Source: a virus. From it: DNA of 34,588 bases. Shown here piece by piece: positions 1 through 2,878 of the stretch. How positions within the stretch are numbered: position 1 is the first letter of the stretch; every line of letters begins with the position of its first letter. The stretch lies in the UHGV virus genome UHGV-0091505, one strand, 5' to 3'. The position numbers and the translations under genes were made by a program. The notes beneath the pieces are model-generated. The model was not told the DNA's origin, did not search any database, and saw only the letters and a list, made by a program, of their open reading frames with translations.

Positions 1-25
1 CCTGTTTACCTCTTTCTCAGGAAGT

Positions 26-1426
26 TTAGTCTCCAGGATTCCCGGGGCGGTTCAGACCGCAATAAAATCCTGTTCCTGTACCGTTTGTGTAAAGTGCGTG
101 ACCTTCATGCCCTTGTGAAGCAGTGATATTTTTATGGTATATTCCTCCCACTTTTTGGTTGTCTTTGACTACACCCTTTACACCAAAATCACATGTGTCA
201 AATCTCGCGTATCCTATGCATGCACTTACTCCAGTTAGCCAAATGCCAGTTATGAATCCATAGACTTCAATGTCATTAATATAGAAATCAGAAATGTCCC
301 TTTCTTCATAATAGTTCAACCATACTGGACATCCATAATCTTTCCAGTCTCCAGATGTTACATATGAATATCCAAGGGTATTACTATTAATTACAGTTGT
401 CCTGTCCCCATTATATGTAAACTTCCAATATCCCAACATTTTCACTCGAGGTGTACGAATTTCGAACACTGGATAACCCCACAACAATTGCTCAAAGGTG
501 GCATTATCAGAAATTAGAACCATGTCAGGATTTGGAATTATAATCCACCCAGATATAGTGTATTTTAGATTTCCAAACTCTATTCTCTTTGCTCCACTAT
601 TCAGAGCAGCATTAATTGCTGCCATATCAGCATCGGCATCACCATTTCCTACCGGTCCGAAATCTGCAACAGTAACTGTTTCAGCCATCTTGTCATGGAC
701 TGTCCTTGTAACAGAATTAGAATAAGGTTGCTTAACTGCAACTAAAGCATCCCCCTTCCCATCGGAAGAACTTGCTAACTGAATAAATACATCAGATGCT
801 GATCCAGATGGAGGAATAACAACAATCGCATTACCATCATTATCAAATGCTGGCATCATATTCCGCCGAACTGCTGCTGGAGGTAACTGATTTATTGGCT
901 CTGGAACGCGGAGAGTTCGGCTAAGATTAGAGGATACAATGGTATCTACATAGTTTTTTGTAGCTGCATCCTGAGGGTCGCGTGGGTCTTTCAGATTACG
1001 AATATAGTTATTCAGAGCATTGTACCAGTTAGCAATACTTGACGGCTTGCGCAGTGCCAGGCTAAACCAACTGCGAACATGCTGAATCAGCATCGTTAGC
1101 TTATCAAGCGCATCCTCATGCACCTCGGCAAAGAACTTACCCTGATTGCGCAGATCAGTTTCCTGAGTAACTGGCAGTTCTCGTAATATAGAAATCTGAT
1201 AACCGTTAGCCAATGCCTTCGACAGAATTACATTACCGCCGTTGTACCCTCCCGCACCAGTTACTGTGTAATCAGTATCAAGAGCCAGCACAGCGATATT
1301 TTCATCAAGGTCAACCACCTGAACAACCAGGTCGGATTTGTTGAAAATGCGGAAGGTATACGGAAACGATGTCGTAACGCCGTTGCCGGTGTATTCGTTG
1401 TGGTCAACTTCGGTTGAGACCGTCAT
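26..1426 (-). CDS. tail fibre / tailspike protein
   Basis: 466-aa ORF; N-terminus MTVSTEVDHNEYTGNGVTTSFPYTFRIF is the conserved phage tail-fibre N-terminal anchor motif; mid region ADFGPVGNGDADADMAAINAALNSGA resembles the start of tailspike beta-helix domains; stop TAA at 26-28. Confidence 0.75.
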   Translation of the reverse strand: MTVSTEVDHNEYTGNGVTTSFPYTFRIFNKSDLVVQVVDLDENIAVLALDTDYTVTGAGGYNGGNVILSKALANGYQISILRELPVTQETDLRNQGKFFAEVHEDALDKLTMLIQHVRSWFSLALRKPSSIANWYNALNNYIRNLKDPRDPQDAATKNYVDTIVSSNLSRTLRVPEPINQLPPAAVRRNMMPAFDNDGNAIVVIPPSGSASDVFIQLASSSDGKGDALVAVKQPYSNSVTRTVHDKMAETVTVADFGPVGNGDADADMAAINAALNSGAKRIEFGNLKYTISGWIIIPNPDMVLISDNATFEQLLWGYPVFEIRTPRVKMLGYWKFTYNGDRTTVINSNTLGYSYVTSGDWKDYGCPVWLNYYEERDISDFYINDIEVYGFITGIWLTGVSACIGYARFDTCDFGVKGVVKDNQKVGGIYHKNITASQGHEGHALYTNGTGTGFYCGLNRPGNPGD

Positions 1427-1530
1427 GTTAAATCTCCAGATAGTCGCAGCACCCGTTGCGCCGCATATCTGGTTATTCTATTACCTGAAAAACCATATAT
1501 GGATATATAGCTCATGAATACGGACAGATA

Positions 1531-1545
1531 TTACCTTTCAGGTGA
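1531..1545. promoter_or_regulatory. operator-like site TTACCTTTCAGGTGA (variant of the prophage operator motif)
   Basis: TTACC-N5-GGTGA; same variant class as a site in the cI/cro intergenic region; lies 40 bp upstream of the LexA box. Confidence 0.35.
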
Positions 1546-1582
1546 TTCGCAAAACGTGCTGGATAGCAAACAAATTATTTGC

Positions 1583-1602
1583 TACTGTATAAATATACAG
1601 TT
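1583..1602 (+). promoter_or_regulatory. LexA (SOS) box TACTGTATAAATATACAGTT
   Basis: CTGT-N8-ACAG with AT-only spacer at 1585-1600, flanked TA..TT; about 20 nt upstream of SD GGAGAAG and ATG at 1622. Confidence 0.7.
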
Positions 1603-1621
1603 ATTGCATGGAGAAGATAAG

Positions 1622-1879
1622 ATGCAGCAGTATCACTATCCACTGGAAGACGGATTTACCGAAAGGATTCACACGCCGGGAGGCGTCAGGTCACTGGTGG
1701 AGGGATCGCACTTGATGAAATTACTCCGGGATCTCGATAAGGATGGATTTAATGTCGATGGCCCACTTGCCGAACTGACTGCACTGATTAACTACGTCAC
1801 CAGCTCACAGATGTCTATGCATGATCTGCAAACACATCTCGACTATTGTGCCGAACAATTACGAAAACAAACCAGATAA
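1622..1879 (+). CDS. small SOS-controlled antirepressor-like protein (standalone paralog of the C-terminal domain of the downstream Bro-N antirepressor)
   Basis: ATG at 1622 preceded by GGAGAAG; the track start at 1514 would place the LexA box inside the ORF; translated product aligns with the last ~75 aa of the 2192-2878 protein (PGGVRSLVEGSHLMKLL..LAELTALINYV..DLQTHLDY versus PSGVLGLTENSLLMNLL..AAELTTMFCYI..DIQTHAEY). Confidence 0.55.
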   Translation: MQQYHYPLEDGFTERIHTPGGVRSLVEGSHLMKLLRDLDKDGFNVDGPLAELTALINYVTSSQMSMHDLQTHLDYCAEQLRKQTR

Positions 1880-2036: not shown

Positions 2037-2191
2037 TTATGTGTAAAGCGCACCTATTCTATGGTGGGCTGTGTGGGGGCACCGAAAGGTGCGCCGGGTC
2101 CTTTGTAGCCGGTTACGCCAACCCTGCACAGTTCACCACCAACCGATTGGCGTCGGTAGTGGTGATTAACCTAACTACAAAGGTGATCACT

Positions 2192-2878
2192 ATGACTGCT
2201 AACGTAACCCCATCTGTTTTTCATTTTGAATCAGAAGCAACCATTCGAGCCATTGTTATTGATGGAAATCCCTGGTTTGTTGCCAAAGACGTTATTAAAG
2301 CTCTTCAACTGACAAACCCGACTATGTCAATAAAATCTCTTGATGATGATGAAAGGGCTAAATTTAACTTAGGCCGTCAAGGCGAAACCAATATTATCAA
2401 CGAGTCAGGCCTCTACACACTGATCCTCCGCTGCCGCGACGCAGTGACACCAGGCACTATCCCCTACCGCTTTCGTAAATGGGTTACAGGTGAGGTACTT
2501 CCTCAGATCCGCCGCACCGGAAGTTACATTAAAAACTCGCTCTCGCAGGAAGAACGGATAAAGATGGTTGCCGACCAGGTAGCCAACGCCACGGCGTCAG
2601 CAGTGATGCAGGCGATGAAGATAGAGAACAAAACCTACAACGCCCCACTGAAGCCCGGCTACCGCAGCCTGATACATTCTCCGTCTGGTGTTCTCGGCCT
2701 GACGGAGAACTCACTGCTGATGAATCTGCTGAACCAGTTACAGGAAGACGGGCACGATGTATCTGGCGCGGCAGCGGAGCTGACCACCATGTTCTGCTAC
2801 ATCGTCGGTGTGAGCAAATGCCTGCGTGATATCCAGACACACGCGGAGTACATCAACGACAAGGCTGGGTTCTTCTGA
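2192..2878 (+). CDS. phage antirepressor, Bro-N domain family (Ant-like)
   Basis: ATG at 2192 with SD AAAGGTGA; N-terminal region FHFESEATIRAIVIDGNPWFVAKDVIKALQL..ESGLYTLILRCRD is a Bro-N/antirepressor signature; C-terminal domain is paralogous to ORF 1622-1879. Confidence 0.8.
   Translation: MTANVTPSVFHFESEATIRAIVIDGNPWFVAKDVIKALQLTNPTMSIKSLDDDERAKFNLGRQGETNIINESGLYTLILRCRDAVTPGTIPYRFRKWVTGEVLPQIRRTGSYIKNSLSQEERIKMVADQVANATASAVMQAMKIENKTYNAPLKPGYRSLIHSPSGVLGLTENSLLMNLLNQLQEDGHDVSGAAAELTTMFCYIVGVSKCLRDIQTHAEYINDKAGFF

What the first reader, a model, noticed from the sequence alone, without database searches (positions are those of the whole stretch)
26..1426. Tail fibre has a short, possibly truncated beta-helix-like receptor-binding region
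Only about 220 residues follow the anchor domain, whereas tailspike beta-helix domains are usually much longer; the gene ends 25 nt from the window edge, so truncation, a frameshift or a split with a downstream gene cannot be distinguished. The C-terminal part determines host range.
Basis: inference. Interest (0 to 1): 0.35.

Follow-up and report, generated by a model that had tools for sequence, protein, structure and literature searches.

The report
Prophage tailspike gene split by IS629
The short tail-fibre gene is the front 59% of a 780-residue phiV10-type prophage tailspike that a mobile insertion sequence (IS629-like) has cut in two, an ordinary gene-inactivation event that probably leaves the prophage unable to make infectious particles.

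Summary
The ORF is real: 26..1426, minus strand, 466 aa. It is truncated, and the cause is visible. Window bases 1-54 are identical (54/54) to the left end of a 1310-bp IS3-family element of IS629 type. The last 9 codons (LNRPGNPGD) and the stop codon lie in the IS; only residues 1-457 are phage-encoded.

Longer contigs carrying the same gene continue into the IS transposase orfA. Contigs from the same metagenome samples start with the IS right end, then a GTC duplication, then the missing 323 codons in frame. After that come an acyltransferase gene, the holin/endolysin/spanin genes, attR and E. coli yfgI.

Joining the two halves gives a 2343-nt gene. It differs by 1 nt from an uninterrupted 780-aa E. 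coli allele (WP_251309709.1), whose sequence reads straight through the insertion point.

All seven strong homologues (541-775 aa) run about 300-330 residues past the break. In the AlphaFold model of the intact allele the cut falls inside a strand in the middle of the beta-helix. So this is a simple IS insertion with a 3-bp target duplication in a phiV10-like (Uetakevirus) prophage at guaA. It is ordinary, of low interest, and fully explained.

The parts
55..1426 (-). Phage-derived 5' part of the tailspike gene: codons 1-457 plus the first base of codon 458.
   Evidence: ORF. It matches the intact 780-aa E. coli allele in L063 base for base up to the junction. Homologues align up to residue 457 and then continue.
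812..1426 (-). N-terminal anchor (virion-attachment) module, residues 1 to about 205, of Uetakevirus (epsilon15/phiV10) type.
   Evidence: PHROG 1640 E=6e-147 and other tail families over residues 1 to about 220. 84-89% DNA identity to the tail fibre/tailspike genes of phiV10, PAS61 and TL-2011b. The first 205 aa of the phiV10 protein are the anchor boundary in PMC10408124.
55..811 (-). Retained part of the receptor-binding module (residues 206-457): the linker and about the first half of the right-handed beta-helix. AT-rich (36-40% GC).
   Evidence: HMMER hits P0006-P0012 cover this stretch. AF2 models of P0006 and of the intact allele P0159 have pLDDT about 90 from residue 250, with beta-helix strands from 281 to about 655. 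Foldseek matches tailspike receptor-binding domains. GC profile.
55..57 (-). Target site GTC (gac on the + strand), duplicated on the other side of the IS.
   Evidence: The window reads ...ttattgcggtc|TGAACC. L057, L060, L061 and L062 read ...GGTTCA|gtccgatatacg. The empty site in L063 reads ...ttattgcggtc|cgatatacg.
1..54 (-). Left end of an IS629-like IS3-family insertion sequence: the terminal inverted repeat TGAACCGCCCCGGG... plus the leader up to the base before the orfA ATG. It has the same orientation as the tailspike gene. The window stops here.
   Evidence: 54/54 identity to the left end of a 1310-bp IS copy in Stx2c phage LC727882, which carries orfA MTKNTRFSPEV... and orfB. orfB matches NF033516 IS3 transposase at E=1.7e-93, above cutoff; orfA matches only weakly (E=1.3e-11, below cutoff). 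RefSeq annotates the element as 'IS3 family transposase' in 3043 of 5426 E. coli genomes. L003 continues past the window edge into orfA.
26..55 (-). IS-encoded tail of the ORF: codons 458-466 (LNRPGNPGD) and the TAA stop.
   Evidence: Translation. An unrelated ORF that runs into the same IS end in L001 also ends ...VNRPGNPGD.
1427..1513 (-). Intact upstream region and ribosome-binding site (GGAGATTTAACATG) of the tailspike gene.
   Evidence: Identical to the upstream region of the intact relative L011.

Best explanation
The ORF is the 5' fragment of a 780-codon tailspike gene of a phiV10/epsilon15-like (Uetakevirus) prophage integrated at the 3' end of E. coli guaA. An IS629-like IS3-family element (about 1.3 kb) transposed into codon 457/458 in the same orientation as the gene and duplicated the 3-bp target GTC. 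Translation now runs 9 codons into the IS inverted repeat and stops, giving a 466-aa product. That product has the virion anchor and about the first half of the beta-helix. It lacks the remaining beta-helix rungs and the C-terminal domain (323 residues). The 3' half, the O-antigen-type acyltransferase gene, the lysis cassette and attR remain intact beyond the IS, so this is a simple insertion without deletion. The steps shown here are the IS identity, both junctions, the duplication, the in-frame reconstruction, the uninterrupted allele and the co-occurrence of both halves in the same samples. Two points are inferred. First, the truncated protein cannot fold, trimerise or bind its receptor, so virions would be non-infectious and the prophage is effectively defective. 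Second, the insertion is recent, because the halves differ from the intact allele by 1 nt in 2343.
For: (1) Window 1-54 is 54/54 identical to the left end of a 1310-bp IS with orfA/orfB of the IS3 family. The IR motif occurs once in the window, at 41-54.
(2) Eight independent contigs carrying the exact 466-aa gene share the junction TTATTGCGGTC|TGAACCGCC and end 27-125 nt inside the IS. L003 reads on into orfA, MTKNTRFSPEV.
(3) A scan for the IS right end plus GTC gave 44 loci. Only one, L057, encodes a tailspike C-terminus, and it starts exactly at the junction, in frame, with 323 codons to the stop.
(4) The reconstructed 2343-nt gene is open throughout and differs by 1 nt from the uninterrupted 780-aa allele in E. 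coli GCA_017163575.1 (WP_251309709.1).
(5) The 3' remnant ORF (P0160) lies at the start of contigs from the same samples as the 5' half: ERZ909679, ERZ909698 and ERZ27229478.
(6) L057 continues with Acyl_transf_3, two holins, a GH19 endolysin and DUF2514. A 17-bp repeat of the guaA 3' end (attR) follows, then E. coli yfgI/yfgH, an EAL-domain protein, ppx and a formyl-transferase gene of purN size. The window's integrase sits next to guaA.
(7) All homologues extend 300-330 aa past residue 457. In the AF2 model of the intact allele, residue 457 lies inside strand 455-462 of a beta-helix running from 281 to about 655, followed by a C-terminal beta domain to 780.
Against: No single contig spans the IS, so the physical link between the two halves rests on matching junctions, the duplication, the same samples and the same integration site, not on a continuous read. 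Only about 124 nt of each IS end were seen at this locus, so a composite or rearranged insert cannot be excluded. Loss of function is inferred from general knowledge of tailspikes and was not tested. The name IS629 rests on my own knowledge of that element (1310 bp, orfA MTKNTRFSPEV, IR TGAACCGCCCCGGG); the annotation seen here says only 'IS3 family'.
Confidence: 0.96

Rival explanations
1. A naturally short tail fibre with a complete, compact receptor-binding fold.
For: The ORF is open for 466 aa and has an intact start and upstream region.
Against: No homologue has this length. All strong homologues are 541-775 aa and alleles of the same gene are 780 aa. Similarity stops at residue 457, and the last 9 residues are IS-encoded. 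The cut falls inside a beta-helix strand.
Confidence: 0.01
2. Truncation by a frameshift, nonsense mutation or sequencing error within otherwise continuous phage DNA.
For: None beyond the short length.
Against: The phage sequence matches the intact allele up to the junction base and is then replaced by IS sequence. The same junction appears in at least 8 contigs named in different assembler styles (k127, k115, k109, NODE).
Confidence: 0.01
3. An assembly artefact: a contig wrongly joined to a repeated IS end, while the real genome has an intact gene.
For: The window ends in a repeat, and IS ends are classic places for misassembly. No spanning read was available.
Against: Both junctions were recovered independently in several samples and assemblies, with a reciprocal 3-bp duplication that a misjoin would not create. 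In those samples the gene appears as two contig-end fragments. The exact reconstructed 780-aa sequence was not found in the protein collection, and the intact 780-aa cluster members come from NCBI, JGI and Logan records, not from those ENA samples.
Confidence: 0.02
4. The insertion is a reversible switch, not a dead end: excision of the IS promoted by the IS-excision enhancer (IEE) would remove the element and one GTC copy, restoring the 780-aa tailspike and prophage infectivity.
For: The simple insertion with intact flanks and a 1-nt difference from the intact allele means precise excision would restore the gene. IEE promotes IS629 excision, and IEE-mediated excision restores lacZ in STEC O121 (PMC9943667 and PMC9397093).
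Against: There is no evidence that this host carries iee. The exact reconstructed 780-aa sequence was not found in the collection, so no revertant was observed. No regulated behaviour was shown.
Confidence: 0.05

Closest known systems
Tailspike (tail fibre) of Escherichia phage phiV10 and Salmonella phage epsilon15 gp20 (genus Uetakevirus)
   Same: The N-terminal anchor is homologous (84% DNA identity over window 944-1600; PHROG 1640). The gene has the same position, after the virion structural/ejection genes and before an acyltransferase gene and the lysis cassette. The rest of the window is 97% identical to phiV10 over 85% of 23.6 kb.
   Different: The receptor-binding module is unrelated at the DNA level and belongs to a small uncharacterised family with 7 strong representatives. 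Here the gene is cut after codon 457 by an IS.
IS629 (IS3 family), the most abundant IS of E. coli O157:H7
   Same: The left end is identical (54/54) and the right end is identical over 124 nt to a 1310-bp copy with orfA/orfB. The target duplication is 3 bp, as for the copy in the Stx2c phage (GTG there, GTC here). IS629 is known to inactivate genes in EHEC genomes (PMC9943667).
   Different: Only the two ends were seen at this locus. The left 124 nt differ at 3 positions from the reference copy, so this is an isoform. The insertion site is in a Uetakevirus tailspike gene.
Right-handed beta-helix tailspike depolymerases (Sf6, HK620, CBA120 TSP2, Acinetobacter APK14 gp49, cyanophage Pam1 tailspike)
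   Same: The model of the intact allele is a long parallel beta-helix with a C-terminal beta domain. The best Foldseek matches are these proteins (probability 1.0; TM 0.3-0.4 against the target). Residues 219-279 match the Sf6 tailspike by sequence.
   Different: Sequence identity is 9-13%. Pfam PF12708 is below its cutoff. Substrate and catalytic residues are unknown. The window's product holds only the first half of the helix.
E. coli WP_251309709.1 (780 aa, 'hypothetical protein'), the uninterrupted allele
   Same: It differs by 1 nt in 2343 from the two halves joined, and it has the same neighbours on both sides.
   Different: It has no IS and an open 780-codon frame.

Membership tests
Uetakevirus (epsilon15/phiV10-type) tailspike | N-terminal anchor homologous to the first ~205 aa of the phiV10 receptor-binding protein | tested here: met
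   PHROG 1640 E=6e-147 over residues 1-278. 84% DNA identity to the phiV10 tail fibre gene. Boundary from PMC10408124.
Uetakevirus (epsilon15/phiV10-type) tailspike | Gene lies between the virion structural/ejection genes and the lysis cassette of a phiV10-like genome | tested here: met
   Window 1427-25000 is 97% identical to phiV10. Structural proteins lie upstream. The acyltransferase and lysis genes follow the 3' half in L057 and L063.
Uetakevirus (epsilon15/phiV10-type) tailspike | Complete receptor-binding module: full beta-helix plus C-terminal domain | tested here: not met
   The window ORF stops at native residue 457 of 780. The homologues and the intact allele continue for 300-330 aa. 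It is a disrupted member, in effect a pseudogene.
IS629 / IS3 family insertion sequence | Terminal inverted repeat beginning TGAACCGCCCCGGG, identical to a full-length element that encodes orfA and orfB transposase | tested here: met
   54/54 identity at the left end and 124/124 at the right end to the 1310-bp copy in L001. orfB matches NF033516 at E=1.7e-93.
IS629 / IS3 family insertion sequence | Short (3-bp) direct duplication of the target | tested here: met
   GTC is present on both sides and once in the empty site. The L001 copy has GTG on both sides.
IS629 / IS3 family insertion sequence | A complete element (about 1310 bp with orfA-orfB) lies between the two ends at this locus | not testable with these tools
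   All contigs break 27-126 nt inside the IS. orfA's first 23 codons are seen in L003.
Pectate-lyase-superfamily beta-helix (Pfam PF12708 Pect-lyase_RHGA_epim) | Score above Pfam's gathering threshold | tested here: not met
   There is no PF12708 hit for the window ORF or for P0006. P0008 and P0012 score 18.6-19.9 bits against a cutoff of 27. The resemblance is structural only.

The most novel reading that the evidence does not exclude
The IS629 insertion works as a reversible lock on the prophage. In a host that carries the IS-excision enhancer, precise excision (loss of the IS and one GTC) would restore the 780-aa tailspike and turn a non-infectious prophage back into a transmissible one. 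Alternatively, the anchor-only product could occupy tail sites and act as a dominant-negative.
Probability: 0.05. Interest if true: 0.4.

Novelty: new member of a known kind. Interest (0 to 1): 0.1.

Why it matters
It matters little beyond annotation. The 466-aa 'tail fibre' should be annotated as the 5' fragment of an IS-disrupted tailspike, not used as a short receptor-binding protein for host-range prediction or engineering. The prophage is probably defective. The full receptor-binding module (780 aa, WP_251309709.1) belongs to a small, uncharacterised beta-helix family whose glycan target is unknown. That module is the only part with some follow-up value. The case also shows that a C-terminal ...NRPGNPGD* is the mark of a gene read into the IS629 left end.

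Tried and rejected
- The search for homologous proteins with residues 214-457 gave only 5 weak partial hits and missed the protein itself. With a profile of the homologues' C-terminal halves it gave nothing. The word index was not usable here, and the exhaustive HMMER search and the exact cluster look-up solved it.
- The search for related loci in viral contigs with the C-terminal profile found nothing.
- Megablast of window 1-1600 against 5,426 complete E. coli genomes found no record with this receptor-binding module or this junction, so no finished genome could show the far side of the IS.
- Pfam and NCBIfam give no significant domain for the receptor-binding part.
- Considered and rejected: a natural short fibre, a frameshift, and an assembly chimera (see the rival explanations).

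Full report
**Observation.** The window holds an ORF at 26..1426 on the minus strand (ATG start, 466 aa), and its stop codon is 25 nt from the left edge. PHROG profiles of tail proteins match residues 1 to about 220-280 very strongly (phrog_1640, E=6e-147), but none of these 600-1080-position profiles aligns further. Window 944-1600 is 84-89% identical to the tail fibre/tailspike genes of phiV10, PAS61 and TL-2011b. Window 55-940 has no megablast match in phages.

**The left 54 bases are not phage DNA.** Megablast matched window 1-59 at 98% to many Stx-converting phages, in places with no annotated feature.
- I fetched one of these places (L001, Stx2c phage LC727882). The match is the left end of a 1310-bp element with inverted repeats TGAACCGCCCCGGG....
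- The element carries orfA (MTKNTRFSPEV...) and orfB. orfB matches NCBIfam NF033516 'IS3 family transposase' at E=1.7e-93.
- RefSeq annotates it as an IS3 family transposase, and 3043 of 5426 complete E. coli genomes hold a near-full copy.
- From my own knowledge, this length, orfA sequence and IR are those of IS629 (IS1203 is an isoform). PMC9943667 calls IS629 the most abundant IS of E. coli O157 and a frequent cause of gene inactivation.
- Window 1-54 is identical to this IS end at 54 of 54 positions, and the IR motif occurs nowhere else in the window.
- On the sense strand the gene reads ...GGA TTT TAT TGC GGT C|TG AAC CGC CCC GGG AAT CCT GGA GAC TAA. Codons 458-466 (LNRPGNPGD) and the stop are therefore IS-encoded.
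- An unrelated ORF that runs into the same IS end in L001 also ends ...VNRPGNPGD.

**Beyond the window edge.** The exact 466-aa product is encoded on at least 20 human-gut metagenome contigs. The eight that I read share the junction and stop 27-125 nt inside the IS. L003 continues ATGACTAAAAATACTCGTTTTTCCCCCGAAGTC..., which is the start of orfA. The window ends 54 nt into the IS, as does the SPAdes-style contig L004. This looks like an assembly break in a repeat.

**What the intact protein looks like.** An exhaustive HMMER search with native residues 214-457 found seven proteins with E<1e-30. These are P0006-P0012, 541-775 aa long. All continue 300-330 residues past our residue 457.
- For example, P0008 reads ...GHAVYTNGTGKGFYCG|PVYVEGSP....
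- The window ORF reads ...GHALYTNGTGTGFYCG|LNRPGNPGD*.
- P0006 (771 aa) lies in an intact phiV10-like prophage, followed by a 325-aa gene on the opposite strand, two holins, a GH19 endolysin and DUF2514.

**The other half of the gene.** I scanned metagenome contigs for the IS right end followed by GTC, the expected 3-bp duplication. This gave 44 loci.
- A tblastn with the C-terminal halves of the homologues hit only one of them, L057, and the hit starts exactly at the junction.
- L057 reads ...GGGGCGGTTCA|GTC|CG ATA TAC GTA GAA GGT TCT CCT (P I Y V E G S P). It stays in frame for 323 codons to a stop.
- Joining window 55-1426 to L057 59-1029 gives an open 2343-nt gene of 780 codons. Its product aligns end to end with the homologues.

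**Independent confirmation from the cluster look-up.** The 90%-identity cluster of the 466-aa product contains four 780-aa proteins, among them E. coli WP_251309709.1 and HGW1457701.1, and a 300-aa protein, P0160, which is the 3' remnant ORF.
- In E. coli GCA_017163575.1 (L063) the uninterrupted gene reads ...ttattgcggtc|cgatatacg... across the insertion point.
- It differs from the joined halves by 1 nt in 2343.
- P0160 sits at the start of contigs that begin with 112-126 nt of the IS right end plus GTC.
- Those contigs come from the same samples as the 5' half: ERZ909679, ERZ909698 and ERZ27229478.

**Context.** Window 1427-25000 is 97% identical to phiV10 and to O157 typing phages 9 and 10 over 85-90% of its length. 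Upstream of the tailspike lie the usual virion and ejection proteins.
- The integrase at the right end of the window sits next to guaA-guaB-xseA in longer contigs.
- L057 continues with Acyl_transf_3, the holins, the GH19 endolysin and DUF2514.
- A 17-bp repeat of the guaA 3' end (ATTGAGTGGGAATGATT, the att core) follows, then E. coli yfgI/yfgH-like genes, an EAL-domain protein, ppx and a formyl-transferase gene of purN size.
- The IS insertion is therefore simple, and nothing downstream was deleted.

**Structure.** AlphaFold2 models of P0006 and of the intact allele P0159 are confident from residue 250 onward (pLDDT about 90). The anchor (residues 1-248) is poorly modelled for lack of aligned sequences.
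- Beta-strands run continuously from 281 to about 655, followed by a beta-rich C-terminal region to 780.
- The best Foldseek matches are beta-helix tailspikes and depolymerases: Pam1, APK14 gp49, AP22 gp54, Sf6, HK620, CBA120 TSP2 and 'pectate lyase superfamily' phage proteins. TM-scores are modest, 0.3-0.45.
- Residue 457 lies inside strand 455-462. The product therefore keeps about 175 of about 375 helix residues and none of the C-terminal domain.

**Mechanism and consequence.** Shown here: an IS629-like element inserted into codon 457/458 with a GTC duplication, splitting a 780-codon tailspike gene. Inferred from general knowledge of trimeric beta-helix tailspikes (PMC10408124 for the anchor-plus-receptor-binding-domain architecture): a half-helix without its C-terminal part will not fold or trimerise into a working receptor-binding or depolymerase module. 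Particles from this prophage should then be unable to adsorb. The near-identity to the intact allele suggests a recent event.

**Rivals.** A natural short fibre, a frameshift and an assembly chimera are each contradicted by the junction data. IEE-mediated excision could in principle restore the gene, but nothing here shows that it happens.

**Verdict.** The cause, an IS629 insertion, is ordinary. Interest is low. The only mildly new element is the uncharacterised receptor-binding module, whose full sequence is already in RefSeq as a hypothetical protein.

Noticed in passing
window 1514..1879 (+) and 2039..2878 (+): The 121-aa ORF and the 279-aa Bro-N/Ant antirepressor share a C-terminal module (phrog_450 and phrog_15539 hit both). 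The small ORF looks like a duplicated or orphan antirepressor C-terminal domain.
   Followed up: no
window ~572 (codon ~285 of the tailspike), compared with L011: The window and the intact relative L011 differ at only 2 of about 1028 aligned positions, from the upstream region to codon ~285. Beyond that they drop to about 70% identity. This is a recombination breakpoint just inside the start of the beta-helix.
   Followed up: partly
P0161 (706 aa, Logan assemblies): The same receptor-binding module (about 95% identical from residue ~230 on) is fused to a completely different N-terminal anchor. This is module exchange between phage types.
   Followed up: no
L003, L005, L007, L009 (ERR688577, ERR688647, ERR688570, ERR688534; PRJEB7774) and other ENA assemblies: The identical IS-split allele appears in at least four runs of one human-gut cohort and in other assemblies. 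It could be a shared E. coli strain, re-assemblies of the same data, or cross-sample carry-over. No complete RefSeq E. coli genome has it.
   Followed up: no
L057 1054..2067 (-); L063 8368..9381 (-): An Acyl_transf_3 gene (337 aa) lies directly downstream of the tailspike on the opposite strand. It is probably an O-antigen acetyltransferase for lysogenic conversion, as described for phiV10.
   Followed up: partly
L012 9794-9810 and L057 4131-4147; window right edge 34588: The 17-bp att core ATTGAGTGGGAATGATT duplicates the 3' end of guaA. The window stops about 140 nt short of attL, 50 nt beyond the integrase start.
   Followed up: yes
L001 2526..2864 (-): An ORF in an Stx2c phage that runs into the same IS end also terminates ...VNRPGNPGD*. 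This peptide tail marks genes read into the IS629 left end in this frame.
   Followed up: no
window 1427-25000 vs KP869107/KP869108: The matching region of O157 typing phages 9 and 10 is annotated with a tRNA-Arg. I did not check whether the window carries it.
   Followed up: no
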